DNA of 64,000 nt from Cyanophora paradoxa CCMP329. Its lineage: Eukaryota; Plantae; Glaucophyta. Each line of letters starts with the position of its first letter. The first letter of the stretch is position 1. Made by a program: the position numbers and the translations under genes. This document shows positions 11,620-20,500 of the stretch, in pieces. The DNA lies in assembly GCA_004431415.1 (NCBI GenBank), contig QPMI01000109.1:1-64000 (forward strand), given 5' to 3'. The notes beneath the pieces are model-generated. The model did no database searches. It worked only from the letters and a program-made list of their open reading frames with translations, and had not been told where the DNA came from.

Positions 11620-12674
11620 ATGACCTCCCTTTTAGAGATTCCAAACTATGAACTTGCCGCAAAATCACTCCATAGCACCTCTCATGGAGTAGTTGATTCA
11701 ACCCCTGGGTATATTTGTACTGAAACTTCAAGTAATACCTCTTTCACAGAGAATAATATACTCAGAGTCAAAGAAATTCGATGTGATAGAAATGGAGGCA
11801 AGATAAGAACCACAGGAATTATTATCTCGAATAAAAATCAGGATCAAGCAGGTCAAGTAGTCCCTGATTTGGCAGTCTATGATAATGTGGGTGGATTTAC
11901 CACAGCACAGATAGTTACTTTTGGTAACACAAGTAATAATTCTGCACTTGTGGTTAAAAGTGGAGGAGCCTACATTGGTGATGGAGCAAATGTAGCAGGA
12001 ACTGTCACAGCTAATCAATTAAATGTGGGTGGGATAAGTTCATTCACAGGATTGATGTCTTTGAATGGTGGTCTCTCAGGAAATATCCAATATGGAACTC
12101 TCACAGCTACTACAAGAATTAATGCACCTGAGGTAGATAATGGATCAGATACCAATGCGAACTATAAACGAAATGGTATTACGATTTTCTCTCTTGAAAA
12201 GATACCTTCCAATTTACAGACACCCACTCATTACGAAACTCTGACACTATCAAACGAAAAGTATTTGAAAAGAAATGGTTGCCCAAGATTTTTTGCTGCA
12301 AAGCAATCGCCAAATGGAGCTTTAACTTTCACAATACCTTCTGGATCTGGTCCAATAACTTCTTATGGAACAGAGTTGGTAGATCAGGGAAATTGCTTTG
12401 ACCCACAACAGGCACTTTTACAGCACCAATTGCTGGATGTTACAGGTTCTTCTTCTCAATTGGAACTTCATCGACAATATTTTATCTAATGATATACAAA
12501 AATGGAGCAGATACCGGATTGCAAGTGTATAACCAAGAAAAAGGTGGAGTCACTTGCTATGGACTTGACATTTTAATTAATCTTTCCCAAAATGACTCTA
12601 TACAACTTTATTATCCTTACTCAACATATCCCTCCCGTTTACTTTTTGGTGGGATGCTTGTGAGTTTAACATAA
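11620..12674 (+). CDS. Fibre-like protein 2: shared N-terminal module plus C1q-like tip (1 frameshift near 12405)
   Basis: After the shift the frame reads TTGTFTAPIAGCYRFFF...LMIYKNG...LINLSQNDSIQLY...FGGMLV, a C1q pattern. Confidence 0.8.
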
Positions 12675-12696
12675 TATTGTCTGTCTAATGTAAAGA

Positions 12697-13724
12697 ATGA
12701 CTACTCAGATAGCAGTACCTGTTTTCTGTTATGCAGCACCAAAAATACATCAACTTAATCACACTGTCACAGATGCTACACCAGGTTTTATTTGCACAGA
12801 GACAACAGGAGCTGATTCATTCTCTCAGAACTCTGTCATTAGATGCAAAGAAATAAGATGTGATCGCAATAATGGGAAGGTGAGAACCACAGGTCTCATA
12901 GTATCAAATAAAAACCAAGTCCAATCAGGATCGATTGTTTCAGATTCAGCAATTTATGATGATGTGGGAGGGTTCACCACACCCAAACTAATAAATTTTG
13001 ACAACACAAGCAATAATGCAGCTCTTGTTGTCAAGAGTGGAGGAGCTTACATTGGAGATGGGGCAAGGATTGATGGAAATCTTGCAGCCAATCAAGTAAA
13101 CATAACAGGAACAAGCACATTTACAGGGTTGGTGACAGCAAATGCTGGTATTTCGATACCCAATCAGTCCCAACAGATAATCCAAGCATTAACAAAAGTG
13201 ATTACTCCTGAAATAGATACTGGATCAGCCACAAATCTGCTTTTTAAACGCAATAGCAATACTGTGGCATTGCTTGAATCGAACTGTCTGACAATTAACA
13301 CACAGAACTATTTTAAATATCAGTCCCAACCAAGATTCTGTGTTCAGCTAAACTATAATCATACAGCAACAAGCGCCACTGCTTTGATAAATTGGGGAAT
13401 CGTTCATTTAAATCATCCTACAAATCATTTTGCAGTTGCTAATGGGAGATTTACTGCTCCTGTTTCAGGGCATTACCGTTTTTCAGCAGTTACCTTCTCA
13501 CAAGCCTCATCACTACCCATAGAGCTTACTCTTCAAGTAAATGATGCAAACCCAAGTGGTGTTGCAATAAATGTAATTGCCTCAAACACTGCTGGATACA
13601 AAACCATTTCGCTAAATTGTATTCTCTATATTGCTGCTAATGAGTATGTAACACTTGTTACAAATACAAATGGGTTTATTCTTCTAAAACAGCATTTGCA
13701 GGTGAGCTTATCAGCATCACATAA
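12697..13724 (+). CDS. Fibre-like protein 3: shared N-terminal module plus C1q-like tip (frameshift near 13678)
   Basis: 'GRFTAPVSGHYRFS'. The shifted frame ends 'TAFAGELISIT*' (TAA 13722-13724), parallel to the end of fibre 2. Confidence 0.78.
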
Positions 13725-13746
13725 ATTTTCTCACCATAAAATAGGA

Positions 13747-14013
13747 ATGTCGAATATCTACCAAGTAGTCCTCTCAGATACTGAAAAACTGGGAATGGAA
13801 TATTGCTCTGCTTCTGTTCAGAATTGGATTGACAATGCAGCCCACAACAGAGCAAGAATTGCAATTGATGAGATTGTTCAGAAAGAAATTCAGTCTTGCA
13901 TTTCGGGAGGAGTTCAAATACCAACCTCAAAGGAAGCTATTGTTTTACAGGCATTCCAAAGGGGGACTGTGAAAAAAGCAATCGAGTATAACATTGTCAC
14001 AGAAGAACTGTGA
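13747..14013 (+). CDS. Small 88-aa protein resembling phage proteins found downstream of tail-fibre genes (putative fibre chaperone)
   Basis: Own ATG after TAAAATAGGA; 'LSDTEKLGMEY..VQNWIDNAAHNRARIAIDEIV'. Fused to fibre 3 in the ORF track only because of the frameshift. Family resemblance is from memory. Confidence 0.6.
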   Translation: MSNIYQVVLSDTEKLGMEYCSASVQNWIDNAAHNRARIAIDEIVQKEIQSCISGGVQIPTSKEAIVLQAFQRGTVKKAIEYNIVTEEL

Positions 14014-14048
14014 ACATTATTTTTCTTTCCTTCTTAGTAAAAGAAGCA

Positions 14049-14893
14049 ATGGGTGAATATAATCGAGTTCAACTGCCTATATATTCCCTTGGATCCCCTG
14101 CAATGCATTTTCGCCAGCATGAAGTAAATGATGAGGTTCGTGGTTTAGAATCCACAGAGAGACCCAATTCCAATGGCAACTCCTTTGATAAAAATTCGAT
14201 TATTCGAGTTAAAGAGCTGAGAGCTGATAAGAATTCTGGTGTGGTTAAAACAACTCGACTTCTTGTCACAAATGCTAACTTTTTCCAGCCTACCAATGGA
14301 GGTCCTGATGCTTACAGTGTTGATCTGAAAGCCCTTGATTTCGATAAGAATTCTGCTGCTGTTACTGTGAGATCAGGAGGAGCATTTATTGGGGTGGCTG
14401 TCGAATTTCAGGTCAGCTTTCATCCTCAATTTCGTATAATGATGTCCCAGATACTCTAGAGCAAAATGTAGAAGACCCCCAACGAATTCGATTATATACT
14501 CCTGTTGCACAGCAGCCATTAATTCAATTTTACATTGGATATACTGTTACTCTTGAAAACTCGGAATTAATTGAAGGAACCAAAAGAGTACTGAGAGGTC
14601 TTGCGATTCCATCTGCAATGCTTTCCCTTTGTAGAGCCAACAACAATCAAGTAGGTCATAAATACTATTTCAATGTTCAGGGATATAATCATTTCGGTTA
14701 TGGCTACTGTGTTTATAATAATAATTTCACCTTTGACTTGTTTGTTACAGATATTGGGTTATATACTATAACTCTTATCGGTTTGAGAACAGATATAGCC
14801 GCTGTATCAGCTCTTAGAGGTGTAACTCCTGATACTCTTTCAGTTACAGGGTTTTACATGGAGCCAGATGTAATTGATGACCCAACCCCATAA
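14049..14893 (+). CDS. Fibre-like protein 4: shared N-terminal module plus distinct C-terminal domain (frameshift in G-run near 14392)
   Basis: One shift joins 'RSGGAFIG' to an open frame that continues into the 14618-14893 ORF. Confidence 0.75.
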
Positions 14894-14916
14894 AAGATAT
14901 ATCCCTTTAATGTAAA

Positions 14917-15750
14917 ATGGCTGAGCAACCCCCACTTGAACGAATTATTACACCACAGCTATCATTAGCTGCCCCAGCAAACCATGTTTTACAGCATGCT
15001 ACCTTTGATGATGTAGAGGGTCTCCAATCCACAGAGGTCCAACCTACAATGAACACCTTTGGTTCCACCCACAAACTGAGATTACAGGAACTCAGATGTG
15101 ATAAAAATAATGGAATAGTTAAGACAACTAAGCTACTTGTCACAAATGCAAACTTTTCTGCTCATTATGGAGACCCAGATAGCTATGGAGATCCTCTGTC
15201 TACTTATTCTTTTGAATCTAGGTCTGGAGCTATTAACTGCAAATCGGGGGGAGCTTATATTGGTGATGGTCTTAGGGTTGGTGGGGCTGTTGGAGCGCCT
15301 CTATTTGTGAATGATCAACCCAATCCCATTGATCCTAACACAAGAATTCGAACCTATGTCCCCAGCATGAATGCCCCATACATTATAAAGATATTCCCCA
15401 TTGTTGTAAATGAACAAACAGCAGTAGTAGACTCTCTTGTTGAAATTGGTGACCACTACAAGGTAGTTGTGGATATCCCACCAGATGTATATGCTGTATG
15501 TCAAGTAGAGGGTGGAACTCCTAATTTTGCAGTTGTGATCACCCCATATGATAATTTTGGTATTGCTTATCATGGAGTCAATTTCGGTTTGGAAGACTAT
15601 CAGTTTCTGGTGAGAGCCACCAAGTTTGGTATCTACAAGTGTGTATTATATGCTGAGAGAACCGATTTTATTGCAAGGCAGAATACCTATGCTGAGTATT
15701 ATGGCACAAATCGATATTTCCCCATTTTTGGGCAGGATACTGCTCCATAA
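14917..15750 (+). CDS. Fibre-like protein 5: shared N-terminal module plus C-terminal domain related to that of protein 4
   Basis: Intact 277-aa ORF with 'LRLQELRCDKNNGIVKTTKLLVTNANF...KSGGAYIGDG'. Confidence 0.8.
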   Translation: MAEQPPLERIITPQLSLAAPANHVLQHATFDDVEGLQSTEVQPTMNTFGSTHKLRLQELRCDKNNGIVKTTKLLVTNANFSAHYGDPDSYGDPLSTYSFESRSGAINCKSGGAYIGDGLRVGGAVGAPLFVNDQPNPIDPNTRIRTYVPSMNAPYIIKIFPIVVNEQTAVVDSLVEIGDHYKVVVDIPPDVYAVCQVEGGTPNFAVVITPYDNFGIAYHGVNFGLEDYQFLVRATKFGIYKCVLYAERTDFIARQNTYAEYYGTNRYFPIFGQDTAP

Positions 15751-15772
15751 GAATATTGGTTATATATAGAGT

Positions 15773-16045
15773 ATGGATAGTAAAACAAAAAAGTTTATTG
15801 ATGCTGCTATGACAGTTCATGGTAAAGATAAATTCGATTACAGTGAGACACATTACATCAAAGCTCAAGAGAAAGTATCTGTTAGATGTTTGCAGTGTAA
15901 CAAGGTGATCCTTACATATCCCTTTAATCATGTGAAGGGATCAGGTTGTAGGGAATGCAACAAAAAGCATTCTCAGGCTTACAGGAAAAGGGCTACTTCA
16001 TCAATCAAAGTAGAGTACAGGGATATTTGCATTAGGTTCGATTAG
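15773..16045 (+). CDS. DUF723-like zinc-ribbon protein
   Basis: 'KFIDAAMTVHGKDKFDYSETHY...KVSVRCLQC...PFNHVKGSGCREC'. Confidence 0.75.
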   Translation: MDSKTKKFIDAAMTVHGKDKFDYSETHYIKAQEKVSVRCLQCNKVILTYPFNHVKGSGCRECNKKHSQAYRKRATSSIKVEYRDICIRFD

Positions 16046-16074
16046 GATTAATTAATTTTTCTAAGGTATTCTTA

Positions 16075-16473
16075 ATGGAGACTAAATACAGAGGCTTTCA
16101 TGTAATGCTTGATTACAAGGCTAAAACAGCTATAGCAACAGGCTATGAGCATGTTAGCTTTCTTGGTAATTGGATTATGAGAACCCTTGAACAAGCAATA
16201 TTGAGACAAGGTATTAGGATTGTTCATAAACACTGTGAGATATTTGATGGCAAACTATCACCTCCTGGTTTTGCATTGGTTCTGCTATTAGATGAAAGCC
16301 ATTGCACAGCTCATTGTTATTCCAATGAAGGCATGTTAGCAATTGATATATTCAGTTGTGGTAAAGAAGCTCAGCATAAAACACAATCAGTAGCAGATGA
16401 GATCGATAAAACAATGAATTTCTTAACATTTGAGAAGACTGAGAGACATAAACATGATAGATTCCCGTTTTGA
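16075..16473 (+). CDS. speD: Pyruvoyl-dependent S-adenosylmethionine decarboxylase-family proenzyme (short prokaryotic type)
   Basis: 'GFHVMLD', 'PPGFALVLLLDESHCTAHCYSNEGMLAIDIFSCG' with the E-SH self-cleavage site; 132 aa. Confidence 0.88.
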   Translation: METKYRGFHVMLDYKAKTAIATGYEHVSFLGNWIMRTLEQAILRQGIRIVHKHCEIFDGKLSPPGFALVLLLDESHCTAHCYSNEGMLAIDIFSCGKEAQHKTQSVADEIDKTMNFLTFEKTERHKHDRFPF

Positions 16474-16523
16474 TGGGTTTCTATAATGAATTTCTAAAGG
16501 ATTCCTTTGTTTTCTAACAATAA

Positions 16524-16588
16524 CATTGATAAGCTACTGTAACAAAAAGATATAATATATCCTTTCACTACAGTAGCTTTATACAATG
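16524..16588 (+). terminator. Stem-loop downstream of the last viral gene
   Basis: Perfect 11-bp stem AAGCTACTGTA (16531-16541) / TACAGTAGCTT (16569-16579) with imperfect extensions on both sides. Function inferred. Confidence 0.45.
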
Positions 16589-16934
16589 ATTATTTTCCGG
16601 ATTCCGGACATTTTTTACGATAGAATTCTATTGTAAGTAATTGGAATAATGTTCGATTTCATTACAGTAAAACTCAACATTCCCCTAGATTCCCCCTATT
16701 ATATAATATTTATATTAAAGTGGACTCTAGGTTGACTCATATTAATCGTAAAAGTAGTAATAGTATATGGATTTTGTTACGAATTCAATGCAAGGGTTGA
16801 CTAAGTGGGTTGAGTTGACTCAAATTTCACAGGAAATAACAATGAATCAGAGTATAAAATGCATTTTTTGAATCAACTACACCAACTAACACTGAGATTT
16901 TCACAATATATGAGATCCTTACTGAATATGGTAT

Positions 16935-17025
16935 GTGTCACAGGTGTCACAGGTTTATCCCAGCTCAAGCCCTATAAAGAGTGATTTTCCCTTTCGATGG
17001 GATGGACCTGTGACACCTGTGACAC
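16935..17025. repeat. Inverted pair of tandem iterons (candidate replication origin)
   Basis: GTGTCACAGGTGTCACAGGT (16935-16954) and its perfect reverse complement at 17006-17025. Confidence 0.8.
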
Positions 17026-17279
17026 CCAATTATTCATTAAATTCCTAAGGGTCCCCCCTTAGACTCAATAAAACAATGATAAAAACATATAAGTTTCATG
17101 TATAATTACGATTGAATTCAATAAGAGATCGATTTGTTTTATTTAACAAATGAATCTTTTATGGATCTTAATCGAGTTTAGCGATATGTTTCCGATTAAA
17201 TGAATTAAATTTAATTAAATTTAATCGAGAAAGTACATGAATATAATATCGATTAAATCAATTAACTTTTAGACCAATC

Positions 17280-17562
17280 ACACATAGTAAAATGCGGAGT
17301 TTTAACCAGAGGCAAGATCTAATTGAGATTCAGTTATATTATTCGGAAATATATACAGATTATCGATAGACTCAGTAAGACTAATCGGAAAATAAGAGAA
17401 ATTTACGATAAAATATCGAAAAGAATACAAAATAATCGAAATAAATGAATATTCGATAAGATATACACAGATTATCGATTGATTGAAATAGAATATACGA
17501 GATATATCAACAAAATCAATTAAGATAAGCCGAGGGTTAAAACTCCGCATTTTACTATGTGT
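17280..17562. repeat. Terminal 283-bp unit bounded by a perfect 28-bp inverted repeat
   Basis: ACACATAGTAAAATGCGGAGTTTTAACC at 17280-17307 with reverse complement at 17535-17562, ending exactly at the AT/GC junction. Confidence 0.92.
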
Positions 17563-17587
17563 CCCGGCTGCAGCTGCAGATGCAGAC

Positions 17588-20500
17588 CTGCGGGTGGGCG
17601 AGGATGGCCTGCGCGATCACCGTGACCGCCTTCCTGCCCGGCCAGGCCTCCTTGCGAGCCGGCGGCGCCAGCCTGCCGGCGGCACGGCCCAGCACGTGCA
17701 GCTGCGCGTACAGGCTCGGGCCGCGCGGCGGGGCGAGGGCGCGCTGCAGCTGGGGGGTGCACGCGCACGGGGGTGCGGCCTCGGAGGTCGCGGGCGGCGA
17801 GGTCCGAGTGGGGCGCGAGGACGGCGGCGAGCTGCCCGTGCACCCACGCCTCGCTCCACCTGCCCCCGCCCGCCCCGCCCCCGTGAGCCTCGCCCGTGCG
17901 CGCCCGGTTGCCTCGAAGAAGCAGCGCACGAGGAAGCTGTGAGCAGGTGGAGGGGCGTGCTGCCCTCTCGGTTCTTCGCCTTCGCCGCCTGCCGAAGGGG
18001 GCGGATTGATTCCATTATTCCGAGGCGATAAACAATCGAATAAAGAGAAACGAGGGCCGAATTATGAGAAACGAGCTTCTAACTCGAACTCGCGCCTGAG
18101 GGCAGCGGGCGACGAGGAGGGGCACGATGAGGTCGCGGTCGGTCTTGCGGCCCACATAGGATGGCCCCAGGCAGAGGTGCAGCACCGTGTCGCCGTCCAT
18201 GTCCTGACCGCGAGGCGGTCGCGAGGCGGTCAGGAAATCGAATGGAGTCCGAAAGAAATCGCAAGGTATAATGTCGCACGGCGGTCAACACGTCGGAGTG
18301 CGGGAGGAACGCCTCGACGGCAGCGAGGTTCCCCGCCAGGCACGCCGCCATCAGCGGGGTGAGGCCTGCAAGGCGGCGAGGCGGCGCGGGCCGGGGCGCG
18401 GTCAGCTGCAGCTGCGGGCTAGCGCGCGCGCTGCGGCGCCGGCGCGCCCGTCGGGTCGCAGAGGGCGAGGGCGGCCTCCTTGTCCTCCTCCTCCTCCAGC
18501 ACCGTCGCCGGGTCCAGCCCCTGCCCACGTGCACGCCCTCCCCTCAGTCCCGGCCCGTGGGGCAGGGCCGGAGGGGAGATCTAGGCAGATTTGGATCTGA
18601 CGGGGTCGCGTGCCTTCTGAACAGCTGCGTAGTGCAGGACAGACTTGCCGTTCTCGTCTGGCAAATCGCTAATTAATATTCAACGGCAATTTCGATCGCG
18701 AATGGCGAGTGGAACGTCAGGACCGCGTTTTGCCACACTAGCGTATACAGCTAGCAAGCGCACGCGTCTGGAGAATTCACCCAAGCAGACATACATCGCG
18801 AGAACTTTATGAATAGGGGCGTCAGCGCCGGCGCGGCGCACCAAGCGGCTCAACGACGGCGCCCTTCAACGCGAAGAGGCGGCGAAGCTCCGCCTGCCGA
18901 CCCGGGGGCGTAACTGCCCAGCCTCGGGGAAGGCTCGAATAAAATTAAATGTGAAGTTGAGATCGGGTCGAGGTCTGGATCTTAAGCTTGGAAGCTTGGA
19001 AGCCTGCAACAGGAGGACGAGGACACGAGCTCAATCGGCGAGTTTAGCGAGGCGGACCTGGACGGCGGGGGGTAGGATCTTGTGGTCGCGCGCGAGCTCG
19101 CGGTAAACGCTGCTCCAGCCGTCCACCATAGGGCCCGGTGGCATCTGGCGACGACCCGCCGGCCCCAGGGGTTGGGGGAGGAAGAGGAGGAAAGTTCGAA
19201 GGGAAGTTAAATATAATCCTAGAGCGACACGAAACTGAGCTGCGCGGCTTTGCACCTCCTTGATGAGGCACAAAATGGGCGACGGGAGCCCCGCGGGCCG
19301 CGCCTCCGGGTCCGCCCCCGCCTCCAGCAGCCTTCGGGGCGCTCAGCGCGCGCGCAAGCTTGAGGCTTTGCTGGACTGGGGCGCGGACTTTCGGACGAGG
19401 TTCACAGAGTGGTTCATGCAGGCGCCGTACAGGGGGGTTGCGCCCTTGCAGCTCGCGTTTAGGTCGATGCCCCGGGCTACCGCCGATTGCGAGAGCAGCT
19501 TCTGCGCAGCACACGCAACGTCAACGGTCCCGCATCGCGGAGGCGCGCGTCGACGTTCCGGCAAGGCCTAGGGATCCCAGGGGCCGGGCCGGGGGAGGGG
19601 GGAGGGGGGAAGGGGTGGGGTGTGGGGGGGGGTGGGGGGGGGGGGGGGGGGGGGGGGAAGGGGCGCACATCGACGGTTTCCTCGCAGTTGGAGAGCGCGG
19701 CAACGTAGAGTGGTGTCCGTCCTTCGTTGTCAGTGGCGTTCACGTCGACCTCGGGGCGCACTGAGTGGCAGCGAAGATGGTCACGAGGAGCGCATAGAAG
19801 TATTCGATTGCGGGGTGATAAACGAGGGCACCCAACAGCATAGCGACGACCGTGGCTCGCACGAGGGCCTCGAGCTCGGCCGGCGCGAGCGGCGCGAGCC
19901 GACGTCCGCCCGCTGCCTCGTGGAGGGGAGAGAAGCCACCGGGCCCGGGGATTCCCGCATTGGCCCGGGGCCCGGGGCGCTCCTGGTCGATGTCGAGCAG
20001 GGCCGTGATGCAGTTTAAGCATTCGCTCAAAGCTGCGCATGCAGAAGCTGATTCCGGAGCTGCGGCGCTCGATACGATATAGATCTCATGATCAGCAGAA
20101 GCTGAAATTTTAAAGGCGGACGCTCTCGCGAACAGTGAAGAGAATAACACGCGCATGCGATGACGCACATAAGAATTTTGCACCGATGTTGGAGATGGCG
20201 AGGAAGAGAGCCGTGCGGCCGGAGTTGTCTGCGCATGCCCACGCCTCAAAAACCGATGGCGAGAGGACCTGGCGAGGAGCTCGTGACCTCGCGCGTTGAT
20301 GACGTCGGGCCGGGCTTCGAGGATCGCGCTCAAGTCCCTGGACCGGCTGCTCTTGGCGGCGACGTGGAGGGCCGTCTGGCCGAGCGCGTCCGTCAGGGAG
20401 GGGTCGGCGCCGAGCTCCAGCAGACCCGCGATCTCGAGCGGCCTCGGACTGGAGGATGCAGGGGGGAACACGTCAAAGGAGTCATGATCAGCGAAAGCTA

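What the first reader, a model, noticed from the sequence alone, without database searches (positions are those of the whole stretch)
11620..15750. Cassette of four genes with one conserved N-terminal anchor and interchangeable tips
Seen: all four begin with a ~120-130-aa module (P..L/Y...H...D...G...TE...F....RxxE[IL]RxDxNxGx[IV]xTTx[LI][IL]xxNxN...xSGGA[YF]IG) and then diverge. Two end in different C1q-like heads. Two end in a related domain (RIRxYxP...FGxxY...GxY...[AG]xRTD) reminiscent of fibre C-terminal chaperone-like domains. I do not recognise the shared module. Inference: a common capsid-docking adaptor displaying alternative receptor-binding domains, giving a multivalent or switchable host-range or helper-virus attachment system. 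This is the best candidate for an undescribed system in the window.
Basis: partly seen in the sequence, partly recalled or inferred. Interest (0 to 1): 0.8.

Follow-up and report, generated by a model that had tools for sequence, protein, structure and literature searches.

The report
Algal virus fibres with swappable tips
A virus-like element present in many copies in what is likely an algal genome has four neighbouring genes that start with the same unnamed 115-residue piece but end in different heads, and related proteins join that piece to yet other heads, so it likely builds several short attachment fibres with exchangeable tips on one predicted three-stranded base, as some bacteriophages do.

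Summary
Observation confirmed, with corrections. The four genes lie in an AT-rich, multi-copy Polinton-like element; the host is likely Cyanophora. They share a 114-119-aa N-terminal module that has no family match and is predicted to form a homotrimer (0.59 against best control 0.00). Genes 1 and 2 end in C1q heads. Genes 3 and 4 end in a domain whose model weakly resembles H-type-lectin-like fibre tips (Z 5-6), not a chaperone. A fifth small gene, which follows C1q fibre genes in phages, lies between genes 2 and 3. Three frame breaks are likely assembly errors.

Tips are exchanged. Cyanophora proteins with 86-95% identical modules carry three unrelated kinds of head, switching right after GGLRV[NS]G. 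Short-read contigs leave the window after the modules of genes 1-3 and rejoin at the next gene. Gene 4 keeps its tip.

Capsid docking is inferred, not shown. A programmed switch is unsupported; homologous exchange is likelier. It works like the Ackermannviridae tailspike cluster or the DSLV2 virophage triple-fibre array, with a different anchor. New variant of a known kind.

The parts
11620..11979 (+). Gene 1, shared N-terminal module (to SGGAYIG)
11980..12674 (+). Gene 1, short shaft and C1q head; frame break near 12401
   Evidence: Pfam C1q E 7.8e-7; frames; indel in short-read contig
12697..13056 (+). Gene 2, shared module; predicted homotrimer
   Evidence: 0.59 vs best control 0.00 for residues 1-128
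13057..13724 (+). Gene 2, short shaft and C1q head; frame break near 13671
   Evidence: Pfam C1q E 3.8e-6
13747..14013 (+). Separate 88-aa gene of a phage family that follows C1q-tipped fibre genes; likely an accessory of the C1q fibre
   Evidence: 42-51% identical relatives; upstream ORF has a C1q motif in 17 of 25 loci, Pfam-confirmed in the 10 such ORFs scanned
14049..14393 (+). Gene 3, shared module; frame break near 14391
14394..14893 (+). Gene 3, linker and head related to the gene 4 head
14917..15264 (+). Gene 4, shared module
15265..15750 (+). Gene 4 head, predicted beta-sandwich resembling H-type-lectin-like fibre tips; conserved in two orthologues
   Evidence: model pLDDT 65; Z 5.0-6.2
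7267..11600 (+). Context: long fibre gene (one frame break near 7679) with phage tail repeats and a weak C-terminal H-lectin match; lacks the shared module
   Evidence: Pfam PTR E 1.9e-6, H_lectin E 4.5e-4 below cut-off; PHROG tail families
5672..7223 (-). Context: patatin-like phospholipase followed by a discoidin (F5/8) domain, in three frame pieces
2201..3594 (-). Context: probable major capsid protein in two frame pieces
   Evidence: 55% and 65% identical to the 456-aa Cyanophora protein P0023; fold not tested
3620..5340 (.). Context: two divergent ORFs (3620-4630 on -, 4660-5340 on +) read as minor capsid or penton genes from recalled motifs only
   Evidence: no Pfam or PHROG hit for either, no PDB hit for the first; identification untested
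1517..2132 (-). Context: A32-type packaging ATPase in two frame pieces
   Evidence: Pfam Pox_A32 E 5.5e-8
17280..17562 (.). Context: right end of the element; 47-nt inverted repeat, then G+C jumps from about 40% to about 65%

Best explanation
The four genes share one N-terminal module and end in different heads, and they likely encode four short attachment fibres of a Polinton-like virus, each predicted to be a homotrimer, whose heads are likely exchanged between virus copies by homologous recombination. Anatomy: residues 44-128 of the module form the predicted trimer core (model). Residues 1-43 carry 8 conserved residues, including two invariant histidines, that the model does not place with confidence in the self-interface; they are the candidate arm that binds the capsid, probably a penton or vertex (inferred). 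A short beta-shaft follows, then a C1q or H-lectin-like head that would bind cell-surface glycans or proteins (inferred from family). Each head sits between its own conserved module and the conserved start of the next gene. A double crossover between co-resident or co-replicating copies, or capture of a foreign head at the shaft motif, would therefore change the head and keep the anchor (inferred). Slots 1 and 2 are the variable ones, slot 3 varies less, and slot 4 is conserved. Shown: shared module, different heads, unrelated heads on near-identical modules. Predicted: trimer, head fold. Inferred: virion location, capsid docking, receptor binding, the recombination route.
For: (1) Context: packaging ATPase, capsid-like gene, patatin plus discoidin, and a long phage-type fibre directly upstream on the same strand. 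(2) Heads: C1q twice. The best 7 solved matches of the gene 4 head model include a cyanophage tailspike domain (Z 6.2, rmsd 2.2, 69 aligned), Helix agglutinin (6.0, 3.0, 87), R-pyocin fibre and phage AP22 gp53 tips (5.4) and discoidin I (5.0). The best viral-model match has E 4.8e-6, and named rows are mostly tail or fibre proteins. (3) Trimer: 0.59 vs best of 3 controls 0.00; runs agree in at least 67% of contacts; partner pLDDT at least 51. The mark was reached by 21 of 30 solved self-pairs and 0 of 23 single chains. All 13 conserved positions from residue 44 on are in the named interface, none of the 8 before it. (4) Exchange in proteins: P0006 vs P0007 have modules 91% identical and unrelated remainders (z -0.4); P0006 vs P0014 94% and z -0.9; P0004 vs P0005 76% and 27%. 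Among 7 Cyanophora proteins the first 90 residues agree at 81-88 positions; after GGLRV[NS]G five different continuations agree at 0-6 positions of the next 15-30. C1q-tipped modules are rejected as one clade, p-AU 4e-5. (5) Exchange in DNA: in run X1, contigs leave genes 1, 2 and 3 after the module and rejoin at or near the next gene (12111 to 12670, 12131 to 12693, 13228 to 13621, 13486 to 13724, 14392 to 14932). 7 of the 10 joints have depth 82-108, close to the host flank contig's 98. One contig alone (depth 451) covers 12260-12543, while up to 24 contigs with variant letters cover single places in the module. In 3 of 4 runs the listed rows show a contig going from the end of the gene 2 motif, in frame, into sequence like the long fibre gene at 10423. 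(6) Heads are phage-type parts: the P0006 tail is 40% identical to the end of a 997-codon phage ORF; the small gene follows C1q fibre genes in 17 of 25 phage loci.
Against: No particle, proteome or binding datum exists for these proteins, and docking on capsid proteins was not modelled. The trimer test was calibrated on dimers, did not use my alignment, has pLDDT 51-55, and on eukaryotic proteins without a solved relative passed only 1 of 7; residues it does not name are uncertain, not excluded. Head fold Z stays below 8, where a common arrangement can explain a match, and Foldseek found nothing at E 0.001 in PDB. All 10 joints are 'between: not known' (they may be deletions), come from one run at 80% likeness with sides of 37-64 letters, and the tool says contig depth cannot rank parts of genes. 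The side lengths of the 13058-10423 joint were not shown. The Cyanophora proteins with the sharpest swaps have no genomic context here, so their viral origin is assumed. Head type largely follows the module tree (5 changes, minimum 4, as low in 1 of 200 shuffles): the gene 3/4 type is one group, and no swap between the C1q and lectin-like slots was seen.
Confidence: 0.65

Rival explanations
1. The paralogues assemble with each other through the shared module, as heterotrimers (like the three tandem tail proteins of virophage DSLV2) or as one branched complex (like Ackermannviridae tailspikes), so one appendage shows several heads.
For: Tandem, same-strand paralogues with conserved slot identity: gene 4 orthologues are closer to each other than to neighbouring slots. 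The same pattern is reported for DSLV2 (PMC12724248, results sections read). A conserved trimer interface could accept paralogues.
Against: C1q and H-lectin-like heads are each homotrimeric folds (established knowledge) and could not pack with one another; shaft lengths differ between the pairs; a homotrimer already passes. Mixed trimers are plausible only within the 1+2 or 3+4 pair. Not tested.
Confidence: 0.12
2. The module is only a trimerisation and folding base, and the proteins are not capsid-bound: they act as secreted or cell-surface lectins or decoys made from the integrated copies, or bind the helper giant virus or bacteria free of the particle.
For: No docking evidence. The module has no likeness to known penton-binding tails. 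The host gene caller annotated module-bearing or related genes on 17 different contigs.
Against: No signal peptide or membrane segment is evident in the N-termini (read by eye). The genes follow the long fibre in the structural block. Phage relatives of the heads and of the small gene sit in virion gene regions.
Confidence: 0.12
3. Ordinary tandem duplication followed by fast divergence of the exposed heads; no exchange is needed.
For: The four window genes form two pairs by both module and head. Paralogous modules are only 57-65% alike in DNA, so they are old and rarely recombine with one another. C1q heads could diverge fast under selection.
Against: Divergence cannot turn a C1q head into the unrelated P0006 or P0022 tails on modules 86-95% identical. 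It may still explain part of the C1q-to-C1q variation.
Confidence: 0.07
4. A programmed switch (site-specific recombination or inversion at the SGGAYIG codons) selects which head is expressed.
For: Sharp boundary after GGLRV[NS]G in the second family; one joint right at the motif.
Against: All genes are complete and on one strand, with no silent heads. No inverted repeat pair lies inside the cassette. Departure points are staggered: 11993, 12044, 12111, 12131; 13058, 13151, 13228. A sharp boundary also results from homologous exchange that ends where constraint ends. The left part of the element is outside the window, so a recombinase there is not excluded.
Confidence: 0.04

Closest known systems
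Ackermannviridae (Kuttervirus) tailspike cluster TSP1-TSP4 (PMC11414711, passages read; PMC8432352, search listing only)
   Same: Up to four adjacent receptor-binding genes with conserved N-terminal assembly domains and variable C-terminal heads, exchanged by homologous recombination in the conserved 5' ends.
   Different: Tailed bacteriophages with XD/TD domains and a baseplate. Here a tail-less eukaryotic element, a module with no match to phage families, C1q and lectin-like heads, and no sign of extra adaptor domains for branching.
Tripartite tail proteins of virophage DSLV2 (PMC12724248; abstract, first part of results and section 24 read)
   Same: Tandem paralogous short fibre genes in a small capsid-encoding eukaryotic DNA virus, with a conserved base, variable tips, conserved slot identity and phage-derived parts.
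   Different: T4 gp37-like collar (PF07484) heterotrimer of three homologous chains. Here no PF07484 hit, four genes, heads of unrelated folds and a predicted homotrimer.
Modular phage-like fibres of Polinton-like viruses (PMC12220804; passages and two supplements searched)
   Same: Reports PLV fibres with many domain combinations, one Cyanophora paradoxa PLV protein with PTR-PTR-H_lectin (the architecture of the long fibre here) and discoidin with patatin in glaucophyte PLVs.
   Different: Describes long fibres by Pfam domains. 'C1q' occurs 0 times in text and searched supplements, and the passages seen describe no shared anchor, four-gene cassette or tip variation among copies.
Adenovirus fibre (tail, shaft, knob; two fibre genes in avian adenoviruses), from the passage in PMC12220804 and otherwise recalled
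   Same: Trimer with an N-terminal part that would dock on the penton and a distal receptor head; more than one fibre gene per genome.
   Different: No sequence match; four genes instead of one or two; heads of phage type.

Membership tests
Polinton-like virus (host element) | A32-type packaging ATPase | tested here: met
   Pfam Pox_A32 E 5.5e-8, above cut-off
Polinton-like virus (host element) | Double jelly-roll major capsid protein | tested here: inconclusive
Polinton-like virus (host element) | Minor capsid (penton) protein | tested here: inconclusive
   Two candidates by recalled motif; no family or PDB hit; no significant likeness to each other
Polinton-like virus (host element) | Integrated, multi-copy, compositionally distinct from the host | tested here: met
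   G+C 0.36-0.41 against 0.53-0.79; thousands of variant contigs on the element, single contigs near depth 100 on the flank in X1 and X2. The junction contig has only 26 letters on the element side, so it does not formally bridge.
Polinton-like virus (host element) | Terminal inverted repeats, replication and integration genes | not testable with these tools
   The left part is outside the window and no genome is held
Trimeric viral fibre or spike | Homotrimer | tested here: met
   Model support only: 0.59 vs 0.00 for the gene 2 module
Trimeric viral fibre or spike | Distal receptor-type head | tested here: inconclusive
   C1q above cut-off; H-lectin-like at Z 5-6; binding untested
Trimeric viral fibre or spike | Attached to the virion by its N-terminus | not tested
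   The one complex job went to the trimer; full capsomers exceed the size limit
Ackermannviridae-type tailspike cluster | Conserved N-termini with exchanged C-terminal heads | tested here: met
   DNA joints
Ackermannviridae-type tailspike cluster | XD/TD (gp10-like) domains and branched assembly on a baseplate | tested here: not met
   No PHROG, Pfam, PDB or phage-genome match for the module. It works like this cluster but is not a member.
DSLV2-type tripartite tail | Phage tail collar domain PF07484 in each paralogue | tested here: not met
   No such hit at E 0.05 or, for relatives, E 0.1
DSLV2-type tripartite tail | Heterotrimer | not tested
   No Pfam match at E 5. The model is a beta-sandwich whose best matches are lectin-like tips; no chaperone is among the 50 rows shown, which does not exclude it.
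Shufflon or invertible fibre switch | Silent heads between inverted recombination sites | tested here: not met
   Four complete same-strand genes; no inverted pair within the cassette

The most novel reading that the evidence does not exclude
The module is a new capsid-docking adaptor of eukaryotic viruses: a conserved histidine-bearing arm plus a trimeric base that lets one Polinton-like particle carry four short fibres beside its long one. The many copies integrated in a single algal genome act as a standing library of heads, partly captured from bacteriophages, which recombine into the variable slots and retune binding to host strains, helper giant viruses or carrier bacteria.
Probability: 0.3. 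Interest if true: 0.75.

Novelty: new variant of a known kind. Interest (0 to 1): 0.52.

Why it matters
How Polinton-like viruses attach to cells, and how their fibres attach to the capsid, is largely inferred from domain names. This cassette gives a small, defined candidate anchor (43-residue arm, 85-residue trimer core) and natural variants with different heads, so docking and receptor choice become directly testable. It also extends the phage strategy of several receptor-binding proteins with a conserved base and exchanged heads to an endogenous eukaryotic virus, with variation visible among copies in one species. The limits: modular fibres are known in phages, virophages and PLVs; the family found is small (7 representatives among 1.84 billion); docking is unproven.

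Tried and rejected
No whole genome is held, so copies could not be read end to end.

The module was not found in IMG/VR (117 and 38 pattern matches, none confirmed), JGI metagenomes (257, none confirmed), annotated phages, PDB sequences (best E 0.2), or in the 23 viral loci fetched with the small gene. The capsid-like protein found nothing in IMG/VR. These are limited-sensitivity blanks.

ESM Atlas gave leads only: unnamed viral clusters at 0.93-0.94 for gene 4 with low recognition, and 0.85 or less for the module.

The full-length gene 4 model was poor (pLDDT 41.7). Its searches test only the head, so the module's fold remains unsearched. Foldseek against PDB with the head model gave nothing at E 0.001.

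No RNA holder was listed; this says nothing on expression.

Summed contig depth as a copy-number measure was set aside on the tool's warning. The apparent drop over the gene 3 head may be partly an artefact, since three long contigs of depth 4528, 3358 and 945 cover it. No joint was seen in the gene 4 head, but only 50 letters downstream were laid.

My first upstream-ORF script wrongly skipped one frame and was redone.

Paper searches with no result: 'polinton-like virus' + fiber + C1q; polinton-like + fiber + penton + cryo-EM; virophage + endogenous + receptor-binding + C1q. Searches listed no title or abstract start describing such a cassette; most listed papers were not opened. A DOI recalled for the Gezel-14T paper was not held, and subscription papers and bioRxiv supplements were not visible, so a prior description there is possible.

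Rejected: chaperone reading of heads 3/4 (fold points elsewhere, weakly); programmed switch; reading 12697-14013 as one 438-aa protein.
Full report
SETTING. Window positions 1 to about 17562 have 36-41% G+C and the rest 53-79%. The AT-rich part encodes an A32-type packaging ATPase (Pfam E 5.5e-8), a patatin plus discoidin gene, a long fibre with phage tail repeats and a weak H-lectin end, and an S-adenosylmethionine decarboxylase. A capsid-like gene in two frame pieces is 55% and 65% identical to a 456-aa protein labelled Cyanophora paradoxa; its fold was not tested. Public DNA runs of one organism lay 2240-5288 contigs each on positions 1-18500, against single flank contigs near depth 100 in two runs, so the element is a large multi-copy family. 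A paper on Polinton-like viruses reports a C. paradoxa PLV protein with the same PTR-PTR-H_lectin build, and discoidin with patatin in glaucophyte PLVs (PMC12220804, passages; supplements). I read the element as an endogenous Polinton-like virus and the host as likely C. paradoxa. The host name rests on homologue labels and on unchecked earlier notes for this genome. The element's left part is outside the window and no genome was held.

THE OBSERVATION. Four genes at 11620, 12697, 14049 and 14917 begin with a module of 114-119 residues up to the GGA motif, with 27 invariant columns. A profile from five non-window relatives finds these four segments at E 3e-32 to 7e-22 and nothing else below E 0.19. 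Genes 1 and 2 end in C1q domains above Pfam's cut-off. Genes 3 and 4 end in related domains (E 2e-5) that are unrelated to the C1q pair. Genes 1-3 each change frame once. Short-read contigs of run X1 differ from the window by a one-letter indel at each of these places, at full depth for genes 1 and 2 and in a part of the contigs for gene 3, so the breaks are likely assembly errors. The long ORF of gene 2 runs on into a separate 88-aa gene at 13747-14013.

THE MODULE. It matches nothing in Pfam, PHROGs, PDB sequences or annotated phages. A profile search of 1.84 billion representatives found 7 proteins at E 0.001 (the profile included the gene 4 head). Word-based searches found 1 of 7995 and 5 of 7996 scored candidates and added P0001 and P0022. 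Five relatives come from unnamed assemblies; the rest are C. paradoxa gene models, 17 sequences on 17 contigs, one of them without the module. Three copies of the gene 2 module (128 aa) scored 0.59 against a best control of 0.00, with at least 67% agreement between runs and pLDDT at least 51. The mark was reached by 21 of 30 solved self-pairs and 0 of 23 single chains, but it was calibrated on dimers and passed only 1 of 7 eukaryotic proteins without a solved relative. The named interface covers residues 31-33, 44-72 and 85-128. All 13 conserved positions from residue 44 on lie in it, and none of the 8 before it (P8, A13, H18, H22, G30, T34, E35, F42). Unnamed residues are uncertain, so this is a lead: a conserved arm that may bind a partner or a metal, on a trimeric base.

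THE HEADS. The gene 4 head, folded with a four-row alignment, reached pLDDT 65. Among 48161 solved chains 7 scored Z 5 or more and none 8: a cyanophage tailspike domain (6.2), Helix agglutinin (6.0), R-pyocin fibre tips and AP22 gp53 (5.4), a white spot virus envelope protein (5.1) and discoidin I (5.0). Five of these seven are, by my knowledge of the folds, H-type-lectin-like trimeric tips, but the Z values are in the range of common arrangements. Viral models gave three matches at E 0.001 or better, with named rows mostly tail or fibre proteins. This favours a lectin-like tip over the chaperone reading. The small gene has relatives at 42-51% identity in 23 IMG/VR loci and 3 phage records. 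Of 25 loci examined, 17 have a C1q-motif ORF directly upstream, 5 have another ORF and 3 have no upstream sequence. I scanned 13 of the 22 upstream ORFs: the 10 with the motif pass the C1q cut-off, the other 3 match nothing. C1q head plus small gene is therefore a phage-type unit. The tail of P0006 is 40% identical to the end of a 997-codon phage ORF.

ARE TIPS EXCHANGED? In proteins, yes. P0006/11/12, P0007, P0014 and P0022 have modules that agree at 81-88 of the first 90 residues and then carry a DYAEY-type tail, two C1q heads only 36% alike, and a fourth unrelated tail. The switch follows GGLRV[NS]G directly. On a tree of 15 modules the six C1q-tipped rows are rejected as one clade (p-AU 4e-5), although head type overall still follows the tree (5 changes, minimum 4, as low in 1 of 200 shuffles), and the lectin-like rows form one side of a branch with long branches meeting. 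Gene 4 and its two orthologues keep module and head alike (56-62% and 62-67%). In DNA of this family (run X1, 80% likeness), ten joints are listed, all with unknown middle and sides of 37-64 letters. Five leave genes 1-3 after the module and rejoin at or near the end of the gene or the start of the next; four skip parts of a shaft or head; one links the start of gene 1 to the end of the gene 2 module. Seven have depth 82-108, near the flank's 98. One contig alone covers 12260-12543, while places in the module of gene 1 show other letters in up to 24 contigs. In the rows shown for three of four runs, a contig passes from the gene 2 motif through 14 other letters, in frame, into sequence like the long fibre at 10423; how far the match runs was not shown. 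Contig depth cannot rank gene parts and the joints may include deletions, so this is supporting, not decisive.

MECHANISM. Most likely (0.65): four short homotrimeric fibres share a capsid-binding base, and heads are replaced by homologous or micro-homologous crossover, with the conserved module on one side and the next conserved gene on the other. Departure points in this family are staggered, the genes are complete and co-oriented, and no inverted repeat pair lies in the cassette, which argues against a programmed switch (0.04). Paralogous modules are only 57-65% alike in DNA, so exchange should be mostly slot-to-slot between copies. Rivals: mixed or branched assemblies (0.12), non-virion lectins (0.12), plain divergence (0.07).

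COMPARISON AND NOVELTY. It works like the Ackermannviridae cluster of four tailspikes with conserved N-termini and recombining heads (PMC11414711, passages) and resembles the tandem fibre genes of virophage DSLV2 (PMC12724248). It is a member of neither: their defining domains were not found. PLV fibres are known to be modular (PMC12220804), but 'C1q' is absent from that text and its two searched supplements, and searches returned no paper. A Tetraselmis PLV preprint mentions one tail fibre gene per element (10.1101/2025.10.09.676808, passages); the adintovirus paper mentions fibres only in passing (PMC8502044, passages). Earlier notes of this scan hold nothing on this cassette. Verdict: a real feature and a new variant of a known kind, with an undescribed module. 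Interest 0.52; the bold reading (new docking adaptor plus genome-resident head library) has probability 0.3 and interest 0.75.

Noticed in passing
window 2246-2363 and 5299-5416: A 118-nt stretch of the capsid-like gene is repeated at 99% identity, on the opposite coding strand, inside the second penton-like gene. Contigs of three runs skip 5306-5416 and carry 24 other letters, so it is an assembly slip or a copy-specific insertion.
   Followed up: partly
window 17280-17562 and 16935-17025: The element's right end is a 47-nt inverted repeat around a 189-nt spacer, and a second 35-nt inverted repeat with GTGTCACAG repeats lies 250 nt inside. Earlier notes describe hairpin ends and iteron blocks in other elements of this genome.
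   Followed up: no
window 7267-11600: The long fibre has an internal duplication (9189 and 10242), acidic 22-residue repeats, and at least eight 12-residue HTH repeats. Many contig joints fall inside it, so it too is mosaic among copies.
   Followed up: partly
window 16075-16473: An S-adenosylmethionine decarboxylase gene (Pfam E 2.5e-11) inside the element, after a zinc-finger or HNH-associated fragment at 15773-16045.
   Followed up: no
window 10421-10450 and 14346-14375: A 30-nt inverted repeat at 73% links the long-fibre site of the 13058-10423 joint with the stretch just before the gene 3 motif; probably chance.
   Followed up: no
window 3620-4630 and 4660-5340: Two divergently transcribed penton-like genes with no detectable likeness to each other. 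Two vertex types could match the long fibre and the short fibres.
   Followed up: no
L025 1053-4303 (Synechococcus phage S-SRM01): The small gene's relative sits after a C1q-tipped gene and between two genes annotated as endosialidase, in a virion-protein region.
   Followed up: partly
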